The position numbers and the translations under genes are program-made. Source: Vicinamibacterales bacterium (lineage in GTDB: Bacteria > Acidobacteriota > Vicinamibacteria > Vicinamibacterales > CAVVIG01). From it: 59,568 nucleotides of DNA. Numbering within the stretch: the stretch's first letter is position 1; each line of letters starts with the position of its first letter. Where the stretch lies: NCBI GenBank assembly GCA_035510155.1, contig DATKHR010000076.1, forward strand, positions 1-59,568, given 5' to 3'. Under the pieces are notes generated by a model. It worked only from the letters and a program-made list of their open reading frames with translations. It made no database searches and was not told the DNA's origin. Below, piece by piece: positions 7,744 to 17,014 of the stretch.

Positions 7744-9630
7744 TCATACGTCGAGGCCGACGGCGCGCATGAGCGCGAGCGCGTTGCTGTGCTCGACGAT
7801 GCCGGGGCGCATGCGGTAGTCGAACGTCATGGTGTCTCCCTCAAGGCGATCCTCGAAATGCATGTTGACCGCGACGGGCCCGAGTGTGAGCGGGAGCTCG
7901 GTCAGCGCCAGGTCGTGGGTGGTGACGAGACCGATGGCGCCGAGCCTCGCGAGAGCGCGCACGATGGCTTCGGCGCCGATGCGGCGGTCGTAAGAGTTCG
8001 TCCCGTGCAGGATCTCGTCGAGGAGAAAGAGCGTCGACACTCCCGACGCGTCGCGCGCGCGATTCACGATATCGCGAATGCGCAGGATCTCTGCATAGAA
8101 GCGTGAATGGCCGGCCTGCAGGGAATCTTCGATCCTGAGCGTCGCGCCGAGCTGGAGCGGTGAGAGATGAAGGCGCGTTGCGCGGACGGGCGCGCCGGCG
8201 AGCGCAAGGACGATATTGACGCCGACCGAGCGCAGCAACGTGCTCTTGCCTGACATGTTCGAGCCGCTGAGGACGATCACGCGAGGCGAGACGCCGCCGA
8301 GAGCGACGTCGTTCGGCACCGACGTCTCCTCTCGCATCAGCGGATGCGCGAGGCCGGTGGCGTCGAAGACCGGACCGATCTCCGCAAAGGTTGGGAACGG
8401 ATCTCGTGGATGCTCGTACGCGTACGTTCCGATTGCCGAGAGCGCCTCGAGTTCTCCGATGGCCCGGAGCCAGTCGACCACGCGAGGGCCGTACGCGGCG
8501 TGCCATCGATCGATGGCGATGGCCAGCTGCTGGGGCAAGAGCAGCGCAAACGCAATGGGCGCGAACATCTGATTGCGTGTTGAATCGAGCCACGACACGA
8601 GCCGTCTGAGCTGGGCGATTCGGCGCGAAGGCGGCACGCCGTCGGTCACCAGCGCGGCTTTGATCCCTTCCAGGGGCAAGGCCGCCATCGGCTCGATTTC
8701 GATTCGCGACAGCAGATCGCTCAGGAGCGCGAGATCGCGATCTGGTGTCGCCACTCTGCCGAGAACCAGTTGGATCCGGCGCCACAAGGTGAAGGCGACG
8801 AGCGATTCAAGGAAGACCCAGATGAGGAGCCACCGGCTGGATATCCGTTCAGCGAACACCAGAGCTGTGAAGACGACCATGGTGACGCCGCAGATCGTCA
8901 CGACGGCTGACACGAGACGCGTCAGACCTGCGGGTGGCGCGATGGCCCAGGCGGCGAGCGTGCCGGTGCGGCTGACTTCGGCTTCGCCGGACAGAACCGC
9001 CAAGTCCTCGCGAAACTCGATCTTGTCTCGCAGCTCCGCGACGGCTGCCTGACGATCGATGACTTGCTGGATTGGCGCAAGCGTCATGCCGGAGCGCAGC
9101 CAATCTGCGAGGGTCTCCTCCCCGGCTTCAGTGGCGACGGTATTCATGAGCTCGAACAGGGATCCGCGACCGAAGAGATCCAGGTCACGCGCATAGGGAT
9201 GGGCATCCAGGAACCGAGCGCCGTCGCGGCCGCGGGCCGGGGCGATGGGGAACGCGGCGCCGATCGCCTTGGCCTGGACGCGCGCCGGTGGCCTCGGCTG
9301 ACCGGTTAACCGCTCGATGCCGCGCAGGTACCACTGCTCGGCTCGCAGCGCTCGCTCACGGCGCTGAAGGACGCGCGCATGCCAGACAATCAAGCCCACG
9401 AACACCGCGCCCAGCGCGAGACTCCACGCGGGCGAGATGGCATTGCGCACGAGGGCCAACCAGAGGGTCACGGCGCCGCCGGCAGCCACGATGAGACGGC
9501 TGTTGGAGATGAACAGGTGGGAGCGATCGAGGGCCACAAGTCGATCGCGCCACATCTGCAGCCGCTTGGCATAAATCGCTTGGGGGGTGACTTCCCCGGC
9601 TCCTCGGCGTTCCTCGCGAGGGTGGCTCAC
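7744..9630 (-). CDS. Membrane-anchored MutS-related ATPase (MutS domain V only)
   Basis: The C-terminus has Walker A GSNMSGKSTLLRSVG, LFLLDEILHGTNSYDR and TTHD. About four hydrophobic helices lie in the N-terminal half. Start set at GTG 9630, which overlaps the upstream TGA (GTGA). The track start at 9783 would run about 150 nt into the upstream gene. Confidence 0.8.
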   Translation of the reverse strand: MSHPREERRGAGEVTPQAIYAKRLQMWRDRLVALDRSHLFISNSRLIVAAGGAVTLWLALVRNAISPAWSLALGAVFVGLIVWHARVLQRRERALRAEQWYLRGIERLTGQPRPPARVQAKAIGAAFPIAPARGRDGARFLDAHPYARDLDLFGRGSLFELMNTVATEAGEETLADWLRSGMTLAPIQQVIDRQAAVAELRDKIEFREDLAVLSGEAEVSRTGTLAAWAIAPPAGLTRLVSAVVTICGVTMVVFTALVFAERISSRWLLIWVFLESLVAFTLWRRIQLVLGRVATPDRDLALLSDLLSRIEIEPMAALPLEGIKAALVTDGVPPSRRIAQLRRLVSWLDSTRNQMFAPIAFALLLPQQLAIAIDRWHAAYGPRVVDWLRAIGELEALSAIGTYAYEHPRDPFPTFAEIGPVFDATGLAHPLMREETSVPNDVALGGVSPRVIVLSGSNMSGKSTLLRSVGVNIVLALAGAPVRATRLHLSPLQLGATLRIEDSLQAGHSRFYAEILRIRDIVNRARDASGVSTLFLLDEILHGTNSYDRRIGAEAIVRALARLGAIGLVTTHDLALTELPLTLGPVAVNMHFEDRLEGDTMTFDYRMRPGIVEHSNALALMRAVGLDV

Positions 9631-10646
9631 GGGGTCAGGGAGATTTCCAGCGTCTTCGCCAGGGCGCGCGCCAGCGCGACATAGTGATCGACGGCATCGT
9701 TCAGCTCCGTGATCGACACGAACTCGTCCGCGGTGTGGGCGGAATGGATGGAGCCCGGGCCAAACAGCAACGGCTCGCCCCATGCCGAGAGGAACGGAAT
9801 GTCGGTCGTGAAGGGGAACACAGCGGCGTCGAACCCAGGAAGAGTCTTCATACGCACGGGAGGGACTTCGATCACGTCGTCGATCGTCACGCGCGATTCG
9901 AGCGGGGCCACGGCGCGTCGCACGAGGCTGGCGTCGCTGACAGTGCGAAACATGACCTCGGCCTCGGCGGCCGGCGAGACCACGTTAGGCGCCAGACCAC
10001 CCGAGATGAGGCCGATCGTGTAATGCGTGCGACCGAGCTCGGGATCCGCCGGCAAAGGGATCGATCGCAGGTCGATCAACGCGTCGAGCAGCTTGTCGAT
10101 CGCAGACTCCCCAAGCTCGGGAAACGAGGAATGCGCCGCGCGGCCGCTCGCCCGGAATTTCAGTCGGAGGATGCCGCGCGTCGCCCGACCCAGCCGATTG
10201 TCGGTGGGCTCCCCGTTGATCAGGAACCGGCTCTCGTTGGGAACGGTGTTCGCCGCGTGCGCGCCGTCGCTGCCGCGCTCTTCCCCCACCACGAACACGA
10301 GCCCGACGCGCGTCTCGCCCTCGCGGCGCAGCCGATCGGCGGCGGCAACTTGAGCGGCCAGGATGCCTTTCGCGTCACATGCGCCGCGGCCGTGCAGTCG
10401 ATCTCCGGCCACGCGGCTCGGAAAGAACGGCGGCACGCAGTCCAAGTGGGTCGAGAAGACGACGACGGGGGTCGTGCCGCGCGCGATGACGTTGAAGCGC
10501 GACGCGTCGACACGCTGTTCGGTGACTGAAAATCCCAAGCCCCGCAGGTAGCCGGCCAGCCAGCGGCCCGCGTCCCCTTCCTGCCCCGTCGTCGAGTCGA
10601 TGTCGACGAGCGCGCGCGTCAAGGCGACGAGATCGACGGGATTCAC
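9627..10646 (-). CDS. M20-family metallopeptidase (ArgE/DapE-like; by context a candidate N-succinyl-diaminopimelate desuccinylase)
   Basis: Motifs HLDCVPP, GRGACDAKG, VVGEERGSDG and NGEPTD. GTG 10646 overlaps the dapD stop (GTGA). The 473-aa track ORF N-terminus is shadow sequence inside dapD. Confidence 0.8.
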   Translation of the reverse strand: MNPVDLVALTRALVDIDSTTGQEGDAGRWLAGYLRGLGFSVTEQRVDASRFNVIARGTTPVVVFSTHLDCVPPFFPSRVAGDRLHGRGACDAKGILAAQVAAADRLRREGETRVGLVFVVGEERGSDGAHAANTVPNESRFLINGEPTDNRLGRATRGILRLKFRASGRAAHSSFPELGESAIDKLLDALIDLRSIPLPADPELGRTHYTIGLISGGLAPNVVSPAAEAEVMFRTVSDASLVRRAVAPLESRVTIDDVIEVPPVRMKTLPGFDAAVFPFTTDIPFLSAWGEPLLFGPGSIHSAHTADEFVSITELNDAVDHYVALARALAKTLEISLTP

Positions 10647-11527
10647 CGAATCCACGCCTCGAGCTCCGTGCGCGTATCTGTCCTCAGGTCGCGGTACTTC
10701 ACGATCACGGGTGTCGACAGAGACAGGCCCCACTCCGGACCTTTCCCGCCGGTCACTGCGCGCGCGCCGGGCACGACCACCGCCCCCTCGGGAATGACGA
10801 GCGGACACGTGGCTGTCGGCTTGATGATTTCGCCGCGCACGAGATCGTAGACAGGCGTGGATCCCGTCAGCACCGTGCCGGCGCCCACGACGGCTCGGGT
10901 CTTGATGACCGCGCCTTCGTAGATCCCGGTGTTTCCGCCCACGAGCGCGTCGTCCTCGACGATGACCGGCAGCGCGCCGATCGGCTCGATGACGCCGCCT
11001 AGCTGGGCGCCGGCGCTGACGTGGACGCGGGCGCCGACTTGCGCGCACGAGCCGACGAGCGCGTGCGAATCGATCAACGTGTTTTCGCCGATCCAGGCGC
11101 CGATGTTCACGAACATCGGCGGCATGCAGATGACGCCGCGCGCCAGGTACGCACCGTCGCGCACCGACGAGCCGCCGGGCACGAGGCGGATGCCGGATTG
11201 CGCGCCTGCGCGGAACTGACGTACGGGGAGCGTATCTTTGTCGAAGAATTGCTCGTAACGCTCAGCATGCGTCGGAGACATGTCGATCGTCTCGCCAAAC
11301 CGGAATCCGAGCAGGATGCCTTGTTTGACCCACGCGTTGACACGCCAGCCACTTGGGCTCGACGGATCGGGTTCGGCCGCGCGGATGTCGCCGGTGGACA
11401 GCGCGTCTCTCAGGGTGGCGAAAGCGTGTCGCGCCGCGCGGCTGTCGGCAGCCGCGCCCGCGGACACGAGGGACTCGATTTCGGTTTGGAGGCTGCCGGC
11501 TCCCGCGCTCGGATCGTGCGGGCGCAT
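10643..11527 (-). CDS. dapD: 2,3,4,5-tetrahydropyridine-2,6-dicarboxylate N-succinyltransferase
   Basis: 294 aa. A left-handed beta-helix hexapeptide region (NIGAWIGENTLIDSHALVGSCAQVGARVHVSAGAQLGGVIEP...) follows a DapD-type N-domain (WVKQGILLGFR). Confidence 0.85.
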   Translation of the reverse strand: MRPHDPSAGAGSLQTEIESLVSAGAAADSRAARHAFATLRDALSTGDIRAAEPDPSSPSGWRVNAWVKQGILLGFRFGETIDMSPTHAERYEQFFDKDTLPVRQFRAGAQSGIRLVPGGSSVRDGAYLARGVICMPPMFVNIGAWIGENTLIDSHALVGSCAQVGARVHVSAGAQLGGVIEPIGALPVIVEDDALVGGNTGIYEGAVIKTRAVVGAGTVLTGSTPVYDLVRGEIIKPTATCPLVIPEGAVVVPGARAVTGGKGPEWGLSLSTPVIVKYRDLRTDTRTELEAWIR

Positions 11528-12427
11528 TTATGCGACAGCCGCCTTCAGAAGCCCCAGCTCTTTCAGCACGTCGGCGATCTTCTGGCGCGATTCGGGCTTC
11601 GGGGCACACATCGGGAGGCGATAGTGCTCGTCGAGCAGACCCATCGCGGCCATGGCGGCTTTGACCGGAATCGGGTTCGATTCGATGAAGTTGCCGAGCA
11701 TCAGCGGAAGGATGCGCGCATGAATGCCACGGGCGGCCGCAAAATCGCCGCGCTCTGCCGCCTCGACCATCTGCGCCATCTCGAACGGGATTTCGTTCGA
11801 CGCGACGGAAATAATCCCGCGGCCGCCGACAGCCATCAGCGGCAGCGTCAGCGCGTCATCTCCCGACAGCACGATGAAGTCGTGCGGCAACGCGCGGCAG
11901 ATCTCGCACATCTGGGTGACGTTGCCTGAAGCTTCCTTGACGCCAACGATGTTCGGGATCTGCGCGAGGCGAGCGAGCGTGGCGACCTCGACGTTCACGC
12001 CGGTGCGGCCGGGGACATTGTAGACGATGATCAGGAGCGACGTGCTCTCAGCGATGGCTCTGTAATGCTGGTAAAGGCCTTCCTGTGTGGGCTTGTTGTA
12101 ATACGGCGTGACCGACAGGAGACCCGAGGCGCCAGCGTGGCGCATCGCGTCGGCCTGGTGAATGACTTCGGTCGTGTTGTTCCCGCCTGCGCCGGCCAGC
12201 ACGGGCACGGCGCCGTTGGCTTCGTCCACCAGAATCTCGACGATCAGCGTGCGCTCGCCGTCGGTGAGGGTAGGGCTTTCACCGGTCGTGCCGCAGGGGC
12301 ACAGAAAGTGGACGCCTGCGTCAATTTGCCGGCGGCCGAGGCGCCTGACGCCGACCTCGTCGAGCGCGCCTGACTGCGTGAACGGCGTGACGAGTGCGGT
12401 CCCGACTCCGGTGAATGGCGTTCTCAT
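11528..12427 (-). CDS. dapA: 4-hydroxy-tetrahydrodipicolinate synthase
   Basis: MRTPFTGVGTALVTPF...GTTGESPTL...YNVPGRTG. ATG 12427 overlaps the dapB stop (ATGA). The stop TAA at 11528-11530 abuts the dapD ATG. Confidence 0.9.
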   Translation of the reverse strand: MRTPFTGVGTALVTPFTQSGALDEVGVRRLGRRQIDAGVHFLCPCGTTGESPTLTDGERTLIVEILVDEANGAVPVLAGAGGNNTTEVIHQADAMRHAGASGLLSVTPYYNKPTQEGLYQHYRAIAESTSLLIIVYNVPGRTGVNVEVATLARLAQIPNIVGVKEASGNVTQMCEICRALPHDFIVLSGDDALTLPLMAVGGRGIISVASNEIPFEMAQMVEAAERGDFAAARGIHARILPLMLGNFIESNPIPVKAAMAAMGLLDEHYRLPMCAPKPESRQKIADVLKELGLLKAAVA

Positions 12428-13122
12428 ATAGGTCCTATCCCAAGGACGTCTCGCATGTTGAACCATCCGCGCTTTCCCGTGACCCATTTTGCCGCAGCGA
12501 TGGCGCCTCGCGCGAATGCCGTACGATCGCGCGCCGTGTGCGAGAGCGTGACCGTCTCAGCCGGACCGTCGAATCCGACGGTGTGGGTGCCCGGGATGAA
12601 TCCCGCGCGCGTCGATGAGATGTCGATGAGCCGAGGGAAGCCTGCACGCTCCATCGTCTGCTTCAGCAGCAAGGCGGTCCCCGACGGCGCGTCTTTCTTC
12701 GTGGCGTGATGGGCTTCGTGCAGGAACGCACCGAATTCGGTCTGCCCCGCGAACAGCCTGGCGGCTTGCGCCGCCAGCGCCTCGAACAGGACGGCTCCCG
12801 CCGAGAAGTTGGGCGCGACGACAGCGCCGACGCCGCCATCCCGCACGGCTTGACGTACCGATGATTCGTCATTCTGCCAACCGGTGGTCCCGATGACAAG
12901 ATTGATGCCGCGGCGCGCGAGCGCGGCGGCGTTGCCGACGACGACCGCCGGGATCGAGAAATCGATCGCGACGTCCACGCCGTTCCACTGCGGCGCGTCG
13001 GGCCCGCCACCGTGCGACGGCGATTGCGGATCCATCACGCCCACGACCTCGCAGCCGTACTGGGGCGCCAGTTCGCCAACGAGCCTGCCCATCTTGCCGT
13101 AGCCCACCAGGAGGATTCTCAT
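12424..13122 (-). CDS. dapB: 4-hydroxy-tetrahydrodipicolinate reductase
   Basis: MRILLVGYGKMGR Rossmann N-terminus and an HHATKKDAPSGTA block. ATG 13122 overlaps the lysC stop. Confidence 0.9.
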   Translation of the reverse strand: MRILLVGYGKMGRLVGELAPQYGCEVVGVMDPQSPSHGGGPDAPQWNGVDVAIDFSIPAVVVGNAAALARRGINLVIGTTGWQNDESSVRQAVRDGGVGAVVAPNFSAGAVLFEALAAQAARLFAGQTEFGAFLHEAHHATKKDAPSGTALLLKQTMERAGFPRLIDISSTRAGFIPGTHTVGFDGPAETVTLSHTARDRTAFARGAIAAAKWVTGKRGWFNMRDVLGIGPI

Positions 13123-14495
13123 CGAAAGAAGGTTTCGTGAAGCCGGGTCATCGCATGGCGCACATCCGAATTCCGCAGGACGAACGTGATATTGCGTCGT
13201 GACGCGGCTTGGGAGACGAGGCGCAACGGAATCCGATCCAACGCTGTCACCGCGCGTCCGAACAAGCCGGCATCAGTGCGCAAATTCTCGCCGACTGCAC
13301 AGATGATAGCCATATCACGCTCGCAGCTGACTTCAGCGAAATTGCCGAGGTTGTCGACGATCGCGTCCAGGCGACGCGTGTCGTCGATCGTCACCGAGAC
13401 GCTGACCTCCGAGGTCGTGACGACGTCCACCGGCGTTTTGAAGCGCTCGAAGACTTCGAATAAGCGACGGAGGAAACCGTGCGCCATCAGCATGCGCGAG
13501 GACGTGATGTCGATCACCGTGACCTCGCGCTTGCACGCAATGGCGGTCAGTTGGCGGGATGAGTCTTTACTCTGCGCCCCGTCGGCGGTGATGAGCGTGC
13601 CGGTATTTTCGGGGCGGCGCGCGTTGAGAATCCTGACCGGGATGTTCTTCGCGACGGCCGGAAGGATCGTACTGGGGTGCAGGACCTTCGCGCCGAAGTA
13701 GGCGAGCTCGGATGCCTCGGCGAACGATAACCGCGGCACGACGTGTGGCCTCGGCACGATTCGAGGATCGGCGGTCAGCATGCCGTCGACGTCGGTCCAG
13801 ATTTGTATTTCAGCGGCATCGAGGGAGGCACCGAAGACGGCCGCTGAGTAGTCCGACCCCCCGCGCCCCAGGGTGGTCGTAACGCCGCTGACAGTCGCGC
13901 CGATGAATCCCCCGAGAACCGGCACCTGCCCTGACGCCACCACAGGCGCGATCCGCCCGCGACAGCAGTGTTCGGTCCGCGCGATGTCGGGCGACGCGCC
14001 CCCGTGCTCGTCATCGGTGACCAGGACGCGGCGCGCATCGACCCACGCGCTTGGCAGCTGATGGTCGTTCATTGCGGCGGAGACGATACGGCTGCTGGCG
14101 AGCTCACCGGCGGCCAGCACGGCGTCGAGCGAGCGCGGCGAGACCTCGCGCAGGACGGCGAGCGCGTGCACGAGGCCGGTCAGCTCGTCAAACTCTTTCT
14201 TGACGTGGGCAAGGACAGCGTCGCGGCTGCCGGTCGTCACTCGGCTCGCGACGTCAATGTGGCGGTCGAGAAGCGCGCGCAGGTCGGCGGCCGCCCTGTC
14301 ACCCTCGCCCTCTTCCGCGAGCGCCACGACGGCGACGAGCGTATCCGTGACGCCGGCGAGCGCGGAGACGACCACAATGGGCGCCGCGGCATCTTTGGCT
14401 TTCTGGCGACGAACGATGCCGATCAACCGGTCGATCGCGTCAGGGTCCGCCACCGACGTGCCGCCGAACTTCATCACGATGCTCACAGGAGACAC
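13119..14495 (-). CDS. lysC: Aspartate kinase
   Basis: VMKFGGTSV N-terminus and C-terminal ACT-type regulatory region. GTG at 14495 overlaps the asd stop by 13 nt. An alternative ATG lies at 14474 (MKFGGTSV). Confidence 0.9.
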   Translation of the reverse strand: MSPVSIVMKFGGTSVADPDAIDRLIGIVRRQKAKDAAAPIVVVSALAGVTDTLVAVVALAEEGEGDRAAADLRALLDRHIDVASRVTTGSRDAVLAHVKKEFDELTGLVHALAVLREVSPRSLDAVLAAGELASSRIVSAAMNDHQLPSAWVDARRVLVTDDEHGGASPDIARTEHCCRGRIAPVVASGQVPVLGGFIGATVSGVTTTLGRGGSDYSAAVFGASLDAAEIQIWTDVDGMLTADPRIVPRPHVVPRLSFAEASELAYFGAKVLHPSTILPAVAKNIPVRILNARRPENTGTLITADGAQSKDSSRQLTAIACKREVTVIDITSSRMLMAHGFLRRLFEVFERFKTPVDVVTTSEVSVSVTIDDTRRLDAIVDNLGNFAEVSCERDMAIICAVGENLRTDAGLFGRAVTALDRIPLRLVSQAASRRNITFVLRNSDVRHAMTRLHETFFR

Positions 14496-15538
14496 TCCCG
14501 GTGCATCAGCTCCGCATTGAGGATCGCCGCACCCGCCGCGCCGCGAATCGTATTGTGTCCGAGGGCGACAAATTTATGGTCGAGGACGGCGCACGAACGA
14601 AGGCGTCCGACAGTGACCGCCATCCCGCCGTCGCGGTGCGCATCGAGCGCGGGTTGCGGACGGTTCGGCTCTGACAAGTAGACGACTGGCTGGCGCGGAG
14701 CCGACGGCAGCGCCATCTCCTGTGGCCGGCCTCTGAATGCATTCCAGGCGTCGATCAACGCGCCGGCGTCGACGCCACGCGCTCCGCCGCCGAAGGCGAT
14801 CGAGATGGATGCTGTGTGCCCATCATGAACCGGCACGCGAGTGGTGGTCGCGCTGATCGTCACGGGATGATGCTCGACGAGACCGCCTCGAAGCGTGCCG
14901 AGAATCTTGTTCGTCTCGGTCTGGATCTTCTCCTCCTCGCCGCCGCCGATGTATGGAATGACGTTGGACAGGATGTCCCACGAGGGCACGCCTGGATAGC
15001 CGGCACCGGAGATCGCCTGCAAGGTCGTGATCATCGCTTTCTCGAGGCCGAACTGGCGAAGCGGCGCGAGCGCCATCGCCAGCACAACCGTCGCACAGTT
15101 CGGGTTCGTCACAATGGCGCCCTTCCATCCGCGGGCGGCCGTCTGAGCCTTCAGCAGCGCCAGGTGATCCGCGTTCACTTCCGGAATGAGGAGCGGCACG
15201 TCAGGTTCCATACGGTAGTTGCGCGAGTTGCTGACGATAACGTGGCCGGCCTGTGCGAAGGCAGCCTCGATGTCTCCCGCGACCGACGAGTCGAGCCCGG
15301 AGAACACGAGCTTCGGCGCGCGGCCCGGCGTCGCCGCATCGACCTGGCGGCCCGCCACGTCGTCGGGCAGCGGGGCCTGAAGGCGCCATGGTGTGGCGTC
15401 GCGGTATGGTTTCCCTTCCGATCGTTGACTGGCGCCCAGCCATGCGACCTTGAACCACGGATGCTTCGCGAGCAGCGCGATGAACTGTTGGCCAACGGCG
15501 CCGGTCGCTCCAAGAATGCCGACCTCGATTAGTGTCAT
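14483..15538 (-). CDS. asd: Aspartate-semialdehyde dehydrogenase
   Basis: MTLIEVGILGATGAVGQQ...TNPNCATV (active-site Cys block). ATG 15538 is codon 35 of the track ORF. Confidence 0.9.
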   Translation of the reverse strand: MTLIEVGILGATGAVGQQFIALLAKHPWFKVAWLGASQRSEGKPYRDATPWRLQAPLPDDVAGRQVDAATPGRAPKLVFSGLDSSVAGDIEAAFAQAGHVIVSNSRNYRMEPDVPLLIPEVNADHLALLKAQTAARGWKGAIVTNPNCATVVLAMALAPLRQFGLEKAMITTLQAISGAGYPGVPSWDILSNVIPYIGGGEEEKIQTETNKILGTLRGGLVEHHPVTISATTTRVPVHDGHTASISIAFGGGARGVDAGALIDAWNAFRGRPQEMALPSAPRQPVVYLSEPNRPQPALDAHRDGGMAVTVGRLRSCAVLDHKFVALGHNTIRGAAGAAILNAELMHRECLL

Positions 15539-15559
15539 GACTCGTGACTCGAAAGAATC

Positions 15560-15595
15560 AAAAAAAAAGCCGACGCGGCGTGAACCGTGTCGGCT
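15560..15595 (-). terminator. Intrinsic terminator / attenuator hairpin about 21 nt upstream of the asd start codon
   Basis: The minus strand reads AGCCGACACGG-TTCACG-CCGCGTCGGCT (11-position stem with one A-C mismatch) followed by nine T residues. It sits inside the 5' leader of the operon, not after a gene. Confidence 0.6.
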
Positions 15596-15621
15596 GTGTG
15601 TTGGCTCGGTTGTGGCGATGA

Positions 15622-15714
15622 CTAGCGCGCGAGCATACAAACTCCGACAGCGGACTGTTTCATCCGCTTGGTCGACTTCGACCGCTTGGTCACACTGGTT
15701 CGCTTCGCGCGCAT
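15622..15714 (-). CDS. Candidate 30-aa leader peptide MRAKRTSVTKRSKSTKRMKQSAVGVCMLAR
   Basis: ATG 15714 to TAG 15622-15624, read directly from the sequence. Too short for the ORF track. It has 5 Lys, 3 Thr and 3 Met codons. It lies between an extended -10-like box and the terminator hairpin. Coding status is unproven. Confidence 0.35.
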   Translation of the reverse strand: MRAKRTSVTKRSKSTKRMKQSAVGVCMLAR

Positions 15715-15724
15715 CGGGACCGAC

Positions 15725-15733
15725 AGTATAGCA
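15725..15733 (-). promoter_or_regulatory. Extended -10-like element TGCTATACT
   Basis: The minus strand reads ...CCATGCTATACTGTCGGTCCCGATG. There is no convincing -35. It would place the TSS a few nt before the leader-peptide ATG. Confidence 0.3.
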
Positions 15734-15757
15734 TGGGCCTTGGTTGTTGAGCCGGCG

Positions 15758-15964
15758 TCAGAGGTATTTCAGGATGCCGCTGAGCGCCTGATAGAGGACC
15801 TGCGCGAGATTCCGGACGAGCGGCGAGATCTCACCTTCATTGACGGCATTGGCGACGGTGACGGGGTTGGTGAGGAAAAGCCAGATCGTCGCCCCGGCCA
15901 GCGCGATGCTCACGATGGCGACGCACGCGAACAGGCTGACGCTGAGGCGCTGAAATCGCATCAC
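15758..15964 (-). CDS. Small (68 aa) membrane protein, unknown function
   Basis: One clear TM helix (LFACVAIVSIALAGATIWLFL). Third-position G/C bias is strong. Confidence 0.6.
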   Translation of the reverse strand: MMRFQRLSVSLFACVAIVSIALAGATIWLFLTNPVTVANAVNEGEISPLVRNLAQVLYQALSGILKYL

Positions 15965-16009
15965 GTCTCAAATATCACACGGCGAGCCATCAGCGACATG
16001 ACAGTTCCG

Positions 16010-17014
16010 TCACACTTCGAGGACGATCTTACCGAACTGGGCGGACGCTTCGAGCCGGTCTTGAGCGCGCGCGGCGTCGGCCAGCGGGAACGTGCGGTCG
16101 ATGGCCGGCGCCAGCTGACCGCTGAAGAAGTACCGCGCGGCCTGCCAGAGCTCGCCTTTCGTACCCATGTAGGAACCCAGGATTGAGAGCTGCTTCGAGA
16201 AGACCGCGGTCAGATCGAGGCTCCCCTTCGGGCCCGTCGTGGCCCCACAGGTCACGAGGCGACCACGGCGCGCGAGGGCGCGGACACTCTTCGCCCAGGT
16301 TGATTCGCCAACATGTTCTATGACGACATCCACGCCCCTGTTGTTCGTGTGGACCTTGATTTCTTCGGCGATGTCTTGCTCATGATGGTGGATCGCGAAA
16401 AAGGCGCCAAGCGCGCGCGCCCGCTCGAGCTTCTCGTGAGATCCCGCCGTCGCAAACACGCGCGCGCCATGAAGCCGCGCAATCTGAATCGCCGCTTGGC
16501 CGACGCCGCTTCCGGCCGCCAGAATCAGCACGTCTTCTCCGCGCGCGATTTGCGCCTTTGTCACGAGCATGTGCCATGCCGTCACGAACGTCAACGGAAA
16601 GGCGGCGGCATGAACAAAATCGATGTGATCGGGGATGCCGATGAGGTTCTGGACTGGCACCTTGACGAACTCTGCGTAACCGCCCTGATGATTGCGATAA
16701 CCGAGCACCTCGTACAGCGGGCAATCGTTGTCACGGCCCGACAGGCACGCGGCGCACCGGCCACAGCTGATGCCGGCTTGCAACATGACGCGTTGCCCGG
16801 TCTCCACGACTTCGCCGGCCACGTCGCTGCCTGAGATATGCGGCATCGGAATCGTCAGGCGCGGCAGACCGCGCCGCTCCCAGAGGTCGAGGTGATTGAG
16901 CGCGCACGCGCGCACCCGCACCAACACTTCGCCGGCCGCGGGCTCCGGATCTGGCGCGTTCTCGTAGCGGAGCACGTCCACGCCGCCGTGAGCGTGGAAG
17001 CGGATCGCTCTCAT
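16010..17014 (-). CDS. Zinc-binding alcohol dehydrogenase / NADPH:quinone oxidoreductase (MDR superfamily)
   Basis: 334 aa with a GroES-like N-domain containing the Cys cluster (CGRCAACLSGRDNDC) and Rossmann motif AAGSGVGQAA. Confidence 0.85.
   Translation of the reverse strand: MRAIRFHAHGGVDVLRYENAPDPEPAAGEVLVRVRACALNHLDLWERRGLPRLTIPMPHISGSDVAGEVVETGQRVMLQAGISCGRCAACLSGRDNDCPLYEVLGYRNHQGGYAEFVKVPVQNLIGIPDHIDFVHAAAFPLTFVTAWHMLVTKAQIARGEDVLILAAGSGVGQAAIQIARLHGARVFATAGSHEKLERARALGAFFAIHHHEQDIAEEIKVHTNNRGVDVVIEHVGESTWAKSVRALARRGRLVTCGATTGPKGSLDLTAVFSKQLSILGSYMGTKGELWQAARYFFSGQLAPAIDRTFPLADAARAQDRLEASAQFGKIVLEV

What the first reader, a model, noticed from the sequence alone, without database searches (positions are those of the whole stretch)
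15541..15757. Candidate Lys/Thr/Met-rich leader-peptide attenuator in front of the asd-lysC-dap operon
The 217-nt leader (minus strand) contains several ordered elements.
- An extended -10-like box, TGCTATACT.
- A 30-codon ORF 10 nt later, MRAKRTSVTKRSKSTKRMKQSAVGVCMLAR. It has 5 Lys, 3 Thr and 3 Met codons, which are the end products of the aspartate pathway that asd and lysC feed.
- A strong hairpin plus U9 terminator ending 21 nt before the asd ATG.

I can draw the classical four-segment scheme by hand.
- Segments 1:2 pair as AGCGGA-TGAAACAG-TCCGCT (15649-15668), with segment 1 spanning codons K16-R17-M18.
- Segments 2:3 pair as CCG(C)UGUCGG (15644-15654) with CCGACACGG (15585-15595), giving 9 bp with one bulge. 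This would act as an antiterminator.
- Segments 3:4 form the terminator.

Lysine genes are usually controlled by L-box riboswitches or LysR-type proteins. A ribosome-mediated multivalent attenuator for the common aspartate-pathway operon would be unusual.
Basis: partly seen in the sequence, partly recalled or inferred. Interest (0 to 1): 0.7.

Follow-up and report, generated by a model that had tools for sequence, protein, structure and literature searches.

The report
Lysine-codon leader-peptide attenuator before asd operon
A short translated reading frame, an alternative RNA pairing and a terminator sit in front of a soil acidobacterium's lysine-synthesis operon and look like a classical ribosome-sensed attenuator tuned to lysine, a family conserved across Vicinamibacterales that has no match in Rfam.

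Summary
At 15541-15757 (minus strand) there is an extended -10 box, a 30-codon sORF 10 nt later, a hairpin plus U9, and the hand-drawn pairings.

Comparison makes it much more than chance. 81 leaders from Vicinamibacterales (Acidobacteriota) MAGs and soil metagenomes share the same plan, always directly upstream of asd(-lysC)-dapB-dapA.
- The sORF stays in frame over 16 different lengths (24-46 codons).
- The stop codon turns over between TAA, TGA and TAG at a fixed place.
- Every sORF has at least one Lys codon in its N-terminal part (31% expected). The usual form is CGA-AAG-CGG (Arg-Lys-Arg), 30 nt upstream of the antiterminator core.
- Segments 1 to 4 change sequence between lineages but keep 1:2, 2:3 and 3:4 complementarity.
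- No Rfam family matches.

Best explanation (confidence about 0.7): ribosome-mediated transcription attenuation that senses Lys-tRNA supply from a leaderless or near-leaderless sORF.

Limits:
- Met enrichment is not supported.
- Thr enrichment is confounded by helix constraints.
- The window's own segment-1 hairpin is lineage-specific.
- Nothing was tested experimentally.
- Equilibrium folding gives only a modest switch.

Verdict: a new member of a known kind, of moderate interest.

The parts
15725..15733 (-). Extended -10 promoter box TGCTATACT. No clear -35 in the window; relatives have TTGAAG 16 nt upstream.
   Evidence: Sequence. The same box, or a one-mismatch variant, is found in the 73 parsed leaders, 7-12 nt before the sORF start in 68 of them.
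15622..15714 (-). Leader sORF, 30 codons plus TAG: MRAKRTSVTKRSKSTKRMKQSAVGVCMLAR. It has no Shine-Dalgarno sequence and starts 10 nt after the -10 box, which implies a leaderless or near-leaderless mRNA.
   Evidence: The homologous sORF is in frame in 81 of 81 leaders, over 16 lengths, with stops TAA, TGA and TAG.
15658..15705 (-). Tract holding the five Lys codons: AAG 15705-15703, 15687-15685, 15678-15676 and 15669-15667, and AAA 15660-15658. Three are followed by an Arg codon (AAG-CGN). These are the proposed sensing codons.
   Evidence: Lys is 9.4% of sORF residues against 2.3% in window ORFs. All 81 sORFs have Lys in the N-terminal part, and Lys is almost absent from the last 10 residues.
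15649..15668 (-). Window-specific 1:2 hairpin AGCGGA-UGAAACAG-UCCGCU. It hides the 5' part of segment 2, and its segment 1 covers codons K16-R17-M18.
   Evidence: MFE folds; RNAduplex -10.2 kcal/mol. Not conserved in relatives.
15644..15654 (-). Segment 2 (5' half of the antiterminator), UCCGCUGUCGG, with the conserved core GUCGG.
   Evidence: Pairs with 15593-15585 in masked folds. The GUCGG core ends 15-18 nt before the stop codon in most leaders.
15625..15712 (-). Long-range closing helix. GCGCGCGA (15712-15705, codons 1-4) pairs with UCGCGCGC (15632-15625, last codons), enclosing the sORF in the untranslated RNA.
   Evidence: MFE and centroid structures. The corresponding GUGCUU/GAGCAC and GCGCUU/GAGCGC pairings in relatives were seen by eye and not counted formally.
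15604..15634 (-). Hairpin H spanning the stop codon. GCUCG (15634-15630) pairs with CGAGC (15608-15604). It sits between segments 2 and 3 and would be opened by a ribosome reaching the stop codon.
   Evidence: RNAalifold consensus. 98% of cells are paired in clade 1, and the hairpin is also present in clade 2. It is nearly invariant, so there is little covariation.
15568..15595 (-). Terminator hairpin. Segment 3 is AGCCGACACGG (15595-15585) and segment 4 is GCCGCGUCGGCU (15579-15568). The stem carries a conserved A.C mismatch.
   Evidence: 98-99% of cells are paired in both clades.
15560..15568 (-). U-tract (T9) of the intrinsic terminator, 21 nt before the asd ATG.
   Evidence: A T-run of 6-9 is present in nearly all relatives.
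9627..15538 (-). Regulated operon: asd 15538-14483, lysC 14495-13119, dapB 13122-12424, dapA 12487-11528, dapD 11527-10643, and a dapE-like gene from about 10640 to 9627.
   Evidence: NCBIfam matches above the curated cut-offs for asd, lysC, dapB, dapA and dapD. The order asd(-lysC)-dapB-dapA is conserved in the loci.

Best explanation
This is a ribosome-mediated (leader-peptide) transcription attenuator of the lysine/diaminopimelate operon asd-lysC-dapBADE.

**Proposed sequence of events**
1. Transcription starts a few bases before the sORF ATG, from an extended -10 promoter. This is inferred from the spacing.
2. A ribosome translates the sORF while RNA polymerase moves on.
3. When Lys-tRNA is plentiful, the ribosome runs to the stop codon and leaves. 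Segment 2 (core GUCGG) is then taken by an upstream partner, segment 1. In the window that partner is the AGCGGA hairpin plus the closing helix.
4. Segments 3 and 4 form the hairpin-U9 terminator, and transcription stops 21 nt before asd.
5. When Lys-tRNA is scarce, the ribosome stalls on a Lys codon. In relatives this is the conserved CGA-AAG-CGG, 30 nt upstream of GUCGG. In the window it is most likely K13 or K16.
6. The stalled ribosome covers segment 1 but not segment 2. Segment 2 pairs with segment 3 as soon as segment 3 is made, helped by hairpin H, which brings the two together. The terminator cannot form, and the operon is transcribed.

**Shown here:** the sequence elements, their conservation, selection for an open frame, the positional conservation of Lys codons, and the conserved mutually exclusive complementarities.

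**Inferred:** the transcription start, translation itself, stalling, termination efficiency, and the response to lysine.
For: 1. **sORF under coding constraint.**
   - All 81 leaders have the frame open from a start codon 7-12 nt after the -10 box to a stop at a fixed place.
   - There are 16 different lengths and 73 distinct nucleotide sequences. Stops are TAA 31, TGA 28 and TAG 14.
   - The nucleotide distance from the ATG to the segment 2 core is a multiple of 3 in 60 of 64 leaders, over 18 such distances. The non-coding distance from stop to U-tract takes any value from 55 to 72.
   - A 45-nt mobile insert inside the sORF adds exactly 15 codons.
2. **Lys codons.**
   - Lys is 9.4% of sORF residues against 2.3% background.
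   - 81 of 81 sORFs have Lys in the N-terminal part against 31% expected. Only 3 Lys occur in the 810 C-terminal residues.
   - A Lys codon lies 30 nt upstream of GUCGG in 52 of 73 leaders.
   - The Lys codon lies in the loop between segments 1 and 2, so helix constraints do not explain it.
   - In the window the flanking CGA is not kept but the AAG codons are.
3. **Alternative pairings.**
   - Terminator: 97-99% of cells paired.
   - 2:3 pairing: 99% of cells paired in clade 2 and 87% in clade 1, with U.A to C.G exchanges at one pair.
   - 1:2 pairing: 86-91% of cells paired in clade 2, where 0 of 500 shuffles reach the observed paired fraction, covariation score or count of pairs changed on both sides (whole terminated structure), and 75% in clade 1.
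   - Lineages with different segment sequences (clade 1, clade 2, L056, L070, L078) keep cognate 1:2, 2:3 and 3:4 duplexes. These are mostly stronger than cross-lineage combinations.
   - Segment 3 against its own sORF beats dinucleotide shuffles at p <= 0.05 in 44% of leaders.
   - The terminator carries an A.C mismatch or a bulge, whereas 2:3 is perfect (CCGUGUCGG/CCGACACGG).
4. **Footprint-masked folding.** Antiterminator occupancy is higher with the first Lys in the A site than with late codons in 41 of 72 leaders, and lower in 3 (Wilcoxon p = 1e-9). Clade 2 behaves in the textbook way.
5. **Context.**
   - The leader is always directly upstream of asd-(lysC)-dapB-dapA.
   - The U-tract is 0-21 nt from the asd ATG in many loci, including the window, leaving no room for another promoter.
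   - The neighbouring upstream gene is divergent in most relatives.
6. **No known RNA family.** Nothing matches at the Rfam gathering thresholds, and no leader hit has E < 0.1.
Against: - There is no experimental datum. The only RNA-derived contig (15608-15827) crosses the presumed start site and ends before the terminator, so it tells nothing.
- The equilibrium model is weak. In the window and L001-L003 the terminator wins at full length whatever is masked.
- In clade 1 the untranslated truncated RNA is predicted to form 2:3 (median 0.79), so default termination must rest on co-transcriptional kinetics.
- Only 1-2 Lys codons are invariant, which is few for an attenuator, and Arg codons are more numerous.
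- CGA before AAG shows no synonymous drift in most leaders. That looks like a nucleotide-level constraint and not a codon-level one.
- A stall at the second Lys, 15 nt from GUCGG, is predicted to mask part of segment 2.
- Column-wise covariation in clade 1 is modest, and the core helices are almost invariant.
- There is no Shine-Dalgarno sequence. In five loci 38-109 nt are inserted between the box and the ATG, so leaderless initiation cannot be universal.
Confidence: 0.7

Rival explanations
1. The architecture is the same, but the signal is multivalent. Stalling at Thr codons, Arg codons or both in the N-terminal part of the sORF, as well as at Lys, relieves termination.
For: - Thr is 11.5% of sORF residues against 5.1% background, and is present in the N-terminal part of 96% of sORFs against 57% expected.
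- Arg is the commonest residue (17.2%) and flanks Lys as R-K-R in 74 of 81 sORFs.
- Masked folds give antitermination for a stall at any codon from 2 up to the RKR motif.
- asd serves the Lys, Thr and Met branches.
Against: - The conserved Thr codons (ACC) lie inside segment 1 and pair with GGU of segment 2. The Thr just before RKR is freely replaced by N, I, M, S or A.
- Met is not enriched.
- The invariable operon partners are dapB and dapA, which are lysine-specific. lysC is absent in clade 2.
- Arg is abundant genome-wide (10%).
Confidence: 0.2
2. The invariant CGAAAGCGG(G) element is a binding site for a protein or a small ligand, or another RNA-level signal, that sets the 1:2 against 2:3 choice. 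Translation of the sORF is secondary or only resets the structure.
For: - There is nucleotide-level invariance, including synonymous positions. CGA is 31% of sORF Arg codons against 13% background.
- The motif is repeated twice in clade 1.
- In clade 2 it sits in an asymmetric internal loop next to a conserved hairpin.
- In clade 2 it is itself complementary to the terminator 5' arm (-19.4 kcal/mol).
Against: - The window and L001-L003 lack CGA before most Lys codons yet keep AAG or AAA.
- The codon after Lys varies (R, W, H, Q, K, C).
- Frame, start and stop conservation are unexplained without translation.
- No Rfam family matches.
Confidence: 0.1
3. This is an arrest-peptide sensor of the TnaC or SpeFL type. 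The nascent peptide (basic N-terminal part, conserved ...RVGxxVL(E/D)x C-terminus) senses free lysine or another metabolite in the exit tunnel and stalls the ribosome at or near the stop codon. That stall fixes the RNA conformation.
For: - The C-terminal residues and the distance from segment 2 to the stop codon (15-18 nt) are conserved.
- The stop codon lies inside hairpin H.
Against: - C-terminal conservation is at nucleotide level. CUC is always used for Leu, and GCUCG is an arm of hairpin H. The residues differ between clades (VCVLER against VCALDA).
- The last residue before the stop is variable.
Confidence: 0.05
4. There is no regulation. The hairpin-U9 is an ordinary terminator of the upstream gene or of a small-protein gene, and asd is expressed by leak-through or from another promoter.
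For: In the window the 68-aa ORF ends at 15758 with no terminator of its own.
Against: - In most relatives the neighbouring upstream gene is divergent, and the leader is still there.
- The U-tract is 0-21 nt from the asd ATG in many loci, including the window.
- The conserved 2:3 complementarity and Lys codons would have no purpose.
- L054 has lost the sORF and the terminator together.
Confidence: 0.03

Closest known systems
trp operon leader (trpL) of Escherichia coli, the four-segment attenuation paradigm
   Same: - A short translated ORF in the leader.
- Few regulatory codons (two Trp there, one or two invariant Lys here).
- Segments 1:2 and 3:4 against 2:3.
- An intrinsic terminator just before the first structural gene.
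   Different: - No sequence relation.
- The sORF here has no Shine-Dalgarno sequence and starts 7-12 nt after the -10 box.
- The regulatory codons lie in the loop between segments 1 and 2, not inside segment 1.
- An extra conserved hairpin spans the stop codon.
- The phylum is Acidobacteriota.
thr operon leader (thrL, Rfam RF00506) of Enterobacteria
   Same: A leader-peptide attenuator in front of an aspartate-family operon.
   Different: - thrL has runs of Thr and Ile codons and controls thrABC.
- Here there are scattered Lys codons flanked by Arg, and the control is over asd-lysC-dapBAD(E).
- The RF00506 model does not match.
Leader-peptide attenuation of the lysine (alpha-aminoadipate pathway) gene cluster of Thermus thermophilus. 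This is cited from my own knowledge (Tsubouchi et al., J Biol Chem 2005); I could not find it in the paper library.
   Same: Lys codons in a short leader ORF are proposed to control read-through into lysine-biosynthesis genes.
   Different: - A different pathway (AAA, not DAP), a different phylum, and different genes.
- Sequence relation could not be tested because I had no sequence to compare.
Lysine riboswitch (L-box, Rfam RF00168)
   Same: It controls lysC, asd and dap genes, often through a terminator, and gives the same physiological outcome.
   Different: - It is a direct lysine-binding aptamer of five helices and needs no ORF.
- No match here, even at permissive thresholds.
asd RNA motif (Rfam RF01732) of Lactobacillales
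   Same: A conserved RNA upstream of asd.
   Different: A structured RNA of unknown function with no sORF logic. No match here.

Membership tests
Ribosome-mediated (leader-peptide) transcription attenuators | A short ORF in the 5' leader of a biosynthetic operon | tested here: met
   sORF at 15714-15622. A homologous sORF is present in 81 of 81 leaders.
Ribosome-mediated (leader-peptide) transcription attenuators | The ORF is translated | tested here: inconclusive
   Only indirect evidence: frame kept over 16 lengths, indels in multiples of 3, stop-codon turnover, and conserved start-codon position. No ribosome or proteomic data. No Shine-Dalgarno sequence.
Ribosome-mediated (leader-peptide) transcription attenuators | Codons for the pathway's end product are enriched at a defined place in the ORF | tested here: met
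   Lys is enriched 4-fold. It is present in 100% of N-terminal parts against 31% expected, lies 30 nt before the segment 2 core in 52 of 73 leaders, and is nearly absent from the C-terminal 10 residues.
Ribosome-mediated (leader-peptide) transcription attenuators | An intrinsic terminator between the ORF and the first structural gene | tested here: met
   GC-rich hairpin plus U6-U9, with 97-99% of cells paired in both clades. Activity was not tested.
Ribosome-mediated (leader-peptide) transcription attenuators | An antiterminator pairing that excludes the terminator, and an anti-antiterminator that excludes it in turn | tested here: met
   2:3 and 1:2 complementarity is conserved in all lineages, with segment-level co-variation. 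Column-wise covariation is modest.
Ribosome-mediated (leader-peptide) transcription attenuators | A stall at the regulatory codons favours the antiterminator, and completed translation favours the terminator | tested here: inconclusive
   Footprint-masked folding goes in the right direction (41 against 3 leaders, p = 1e-9) and is clear in clade 2. It is weak for the window itself and at full-length equilibrium.
Ribosome-mediated (leader-peptide) transcription attenuators | Read-through responds to the supply of the amino acid | not testable with these tools
   Needs Term-seq or reporter assays in a cultured relative.
Lysine riboswitch (RF00168) | Match to the covariance model (five-helix aptamer) | tested here: not met
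   No hit at the gathering threshold in the whole window, and none at E <= 10 in 15400-16100.
Thr_leader (RF00506) and the other Rfam leader-peptide families | Match to the covariance model | tested here: not met
   The only sub-threshold hits are terminator look-alikes: ctRNA_pGA1 at E = 0.23 and sX6 at E = 1.6.
T-box leaders | Specifier loop plus conserved T-box antiterminator bulge (Rfam RF00230) | tested here: not met
   No Rfam hit. The leader is only about 160 nt.
asd RNA motif (RF01732) | Match to the covariance model | tested here: not met

The most novel reading that the evidence does not exclude
The invariant Arg-Lys-Arg triplet CGA-AAG-CGG in a leaderless sORF is more than a hungry-codon sensor. 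It could be a codon-context or nascent-chain device, for example slow CGA decoding that sharpens the Lys stall, or dual Lys/Arg sensing. It could also be a binding site for an unknown factor acting together with the ribosome. That would make this a hybrid attenuator of a type not yet described.
Probability: 0.15. Interest if true: 0.7.

Novelty: new member of a known kind. Interest (0 to 1): 0.5.

Why it matters
- Lysine genes are textbook examples of riboswitch (L-box) or protein control. A conserved, order-wide leader-peptide attenuator for the DAP-pathway operon shows a third solution, in a phylum where attenuators have hardly been assigned functions. [quoted passage not shown]
- It gives a defined regulatory element for Vicinamibacterales, which are abundant soil bacteria. 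It could be added to RNA and leader-peptide family collections and used in genome annotation.
- Two features make it a useful comparative case for how attenuators are built: the start only 7-12 nt from the -10 box, and the very small number of sensing codons.

Tried and rejected
- **Rfam, whole window and permissive scan of the leader.** Nothing real was found. Rfam on the five asd loci without the leader also found nothing, so no replacement riboswitch was seen.
- **Consensus promoter/terminator scan.** It missed both elements because of its strict rules.
- **RNAalifold on 36 leaders.** It recovered only hairpin H and the terminator. Register slips between lineages limit column-wise covariation tests.
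- **Full-length equilibrium folding with ribosome masks.**
- **Public RNA runs.** Two metatranscriptomes hold fragments as assembled contigs. One covers 15608-15827. It has no strand or end information.
- **Metagenome pattern scan** (CGAAAGCGGG..GTCGG..GCTCG). 115 of 120 returned stretches were chance matches. The 5 real leaders all precede asd, so no further regulon members were found.
- **nhmmer with both clade profiles.** There is one copy per window or locus; the extra hits are the palindromic terminator on the other strand.
- **Literature searches** for the Thermus lysine leader and for any description of this element. Nothing relevant is in the library.
- **Rejected readings.** It is not the terminator of the 68-aa gene (divergent neighbour in relatives). 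It is not a riboswitch (frame conservation). There is no Met sensing (no enrichment).
Full report
**What is there.** On the minus strand, the 219 nt between the stop of a 68-aa ORF (15758) and the asd ATG (15538) hold the following elements:
- TGCTATACT at 15733-15725.
- An ATG 10 nt later, opening a 30-codon ORF (15714-15622, MRAKRTSVTKRSKSTKRMKQSAVGVCMLAR).
- A GC-rich hairpin with one A.C mismatch (15595-15568).
- A T9 run ending 21 nt before asd.

The leader folds better than its shuffles (z = -2.97). The genes downstream are asd (archaeal-type), a lysine-sensitive-type aspartokinase, dapB, dapA, dapD and a dapE-like gene.

**Known RNA families.** No Rfam family reaches its threshold anywhere in the window. 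A permissive scan of the leader gives only terminator look-alikes, with E = 0.23 and 1.6. It is therefore not an L-box, a T-box, the asd motif or a catalogued leader.

**Relatives.** A search with the Asd protein in one-genome-per-species contigs returned 80 loci, almost all labelled Vicinamibacterales or Acidobacteriota MAGs.
- 75 of these loci carry a homologous leader, 72 parsed automatically and L029, L037 and L070 parsed by hand. With the window that makes 76.
- Five more leaders came from soil metagenome contigs, giving 81 in total.
- Five loci lack the leader: L054, L059, L077, L079 and L080. L054 keeps the promoter box but has lost the sORF and terminator together. The other four have no trace of it, and two of them (L077, L079) are labelled as other acidobacterial groups or left unclassified.
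- In all 81 leaders asd follows directly, and the operon is asd-lysC-dapB-dapA or asd-dapB-dapA.
- In most relatives the neighbouring upstream gene is divergent, a 347-aa hydrolase-like gene.
- The U-tract is 0-21 nt from the asd ATG in many loci, including the window.

Together these points exclude the reading that the hairpin is just the terminator of the upstream gene with a separate asd promoter downstream.

**The sORF is under selection to stay open.**
- The 73 automatically parsed sORFs are all different at nucleotide level and have 16 different lengths (24-46 codons).
- They start with ATG (69), GTG (3) or TTG (1), 7-12 nt after the -10 box in 68 cases.
- They end with TAA (31), TGA (28) or TAG (14) at one fixed place.
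- The nucleotide distance from the first ATG after the box to the GUCGG core is a multiple of three in 60 of 64 leaders, over 18 such distances. The untranslated distance from the stop to the U-tract takes any value from 55 to 72.
- A 45-nt palindromic insert in six clade-2 leaders adds exactly 15 codons.
- The eight leaders parsed by hand also have the frame open.

I take this as good, though indirect, evidence of translation. The position of the start implies a leaderless or nearly leaderless mRNA. In five loci REP-like inserts of 38-109 nt separate the box from the ATG.

**What the peptide conserves.**
- The consensus is M-x-F-T-S-D-T-R-K-R-x-G-R-K-R-A-G-R-V-G-x-C-V-L-E/D-R in clade 1, and MFARTTKPTxRKRVPTxGTxRVGGVCALDA in clade 2.
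- Lys is 9.4% of residues against 2.3% in long ORFs of the window. Arg is 17.2% against 10.0%, Thr 11.5% against 5.1%, and Met 1.2% against 1.9%.
- All 81 sORFs have Lys in the N-terminal part, against 31% expected from composition. The last ten residues hold 3 Lys in 810 positions.
- A Lys codon lies 30 nt upstream of the GUCGG core in 52 of 73 leaders.
- The Lys codon sits in the loop between helix segments 1 and 2, so pairing does not explain it.
- The conserved Thr codons (ACC) are part of segment 1, and the Thr next to RKR is freely replaced.

Lys sensing is therefore supported, Met sensing is not, and Thr sensing stays open.

Unexplained: the Arg codon before Lys is almost always CGA (31% of sORF Arg codons against 13% background), with no synonymous drift. 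The window and its nearest relatives do not keep it.

**Alternative pairings.**

| Element | Clade 1 | Clade 2 |
|---|---|---|
| Segment 1 | CACCUCCGACA | GCGCACCACC..ACCGAC |
| Segment 2 | (GGCCG)UGUCGGAG | GUCGGUGGUG.UGUGCGC |
| Segment 3 | GCCGAC(A)CGG(CC) | CCCGCCGAC |
| Segment 4 | CCGCGUCGGC | not listed separately |

- The clade 1 terminator has a mismatch or bulge where 2:3 is perfect.
- The isolated leaders L056, L070 and L078 use yet other sequences.
- Cognate 1:2, 2:3 and 3:4 duplexes are kept in all eight representatives and are mostly stronger than cross-lineage combinations.
- In clade 2 the terminated conformation has 90.5% of cells paired and 6 pairs with changes on both sides. 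For the paired fraction, the covariation score and the count of such pairs, 0 of 500 shuffles reach the observed value. The 2:3 helix is 99% paired but invariant.
- In clade 1, 1:2 is 75% paired and 2:3 is 87% paired, with U.A to C.G exchanges at one pair. Hairpin H and the terminator are 98% paired.
- Segment 3 finds a better partner in its own sORF than in dinucleotide shuffles at p <= 0.05 in 44% of leaders.
- Column-wise covariation is thus modest. The stronger argument is that the three mutually exclusive complementarities persist while the sequences change.

**Ribosome masks.**
- RNA truncated before segment 4 was folded with a 30-nt footprint on successive codons. The antiterminator is favoured when the A site is anywhere from codon 2 up to the first RKR. 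It falls when the A site is later.
- First-Lys occupancy exceeds late-codon occupancy in 41 of 72 leaders and is lower in 3 (p = 1e-9).
- Clade 2 behaves in the textbook way.
At full length and equilibrium the terminator always wins.
- In clade 1 the untranslated truncated RNA is predicted to prefer 2:3. The model therefore needs kinetic, co-transcriptional control, as in known attenuators. This was not tested.

**Conclusion.** The best-supported reading (about 0.7) is a ribosome-mediated attenuator that senses Lys-tRNA supply. Rivals that I cannot exclude are:
- additional Thr or Arg sensing (0.2);
- an RNA-level function of the CGAAAGCGG element (0.1);
- an arrest-peptide mechanism (0.05).

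A non-regulatory terminator is very unlikely (0.03). It works like the trp and thr leaders, and like the Thermus lysine leader that I recall but could not retrieve. By sequence it belongs to no catalogued family. I rate it a new member of a known kind, with moderate interest. It gives a function to a conserved attenuator in Acidobacteria, where almost none have been assigned (PMC2965389), and it is a non-riboswitch solution for DAP-pathway lysine genes.

Noticed in passing
L064, L068, L069, L071 and L074 (partial in L076), inside the sORF; for example L064:2700-2745: A 45-nt palindromic, MITE/REP-like insert (CGCCCCTCGACG...CCTGTCGAAGGGT) sits inside the leader sORF. It adds exactly 15 codons (RPSTTLGTTLSLSKG). 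Near-identical leaders (L067, L073, L075) lack it.
   Followed up: partly
L030, L044, L050, L051, L053 (between -10 box and sORF); L009-L018, L020, L051, L061-L076 (between terminator and asd): Hairpin-forming repeat elements and short tandem repeats are inserted into the leader flanks. Examples are GGACACGAAG-type units and 763 nt of roughly 100-nt repeats in L020. The asd 5' region seems to be a hotspot for such insertions.
   Followed up: no
L054:2950-3003: This locus keeps the divergent neighbour and a TGTTATACT box but has lost the sORF and terminator. The box lies 23 nt from the asd ATG. It is a natural deletion variant that should express asd constitutively.
   Followed up: partly
window 15758-15964 and 16010-17014 (minus strand): The 68-aa ORF (no family match) and the quinone-oxidoreductase-like gene are syntenic with asd in relatives. 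There, a divergent 347-aa hydrolase-like gene lies between the 68-aa ORF and the leader (L001 1750-2793). That gene is missing in the window, so read-through from the 68-aa ORF would enter the attenuator.
   Followed up: partly
L057-L076, and L025, L028, L038, L041, L045, L048, L055: lysC is absent from the operon in these lineages, which have asd-dapB-dapA. The constant partners of the leader are therefore asd, dapB and dapA.
   Followed up: partly
Clade 2 leaders, for example L067:2759-2775: The RKR element GGUCGAAAGCGGGUU is itself complementary to the terminator 5' arm AACCCGCCGAC (about -19 kcal/mol). It could be a second antiterminator or a coincidence. This is not seen in clade 1.
   Followed up: no
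window 9627-11048 (minus strand): The longest ORF for the dapE-like gene overlaps dapD by about 400 nt. Family matches begin near residue 138, so the real start is probably near 10640.
   Followed up: no
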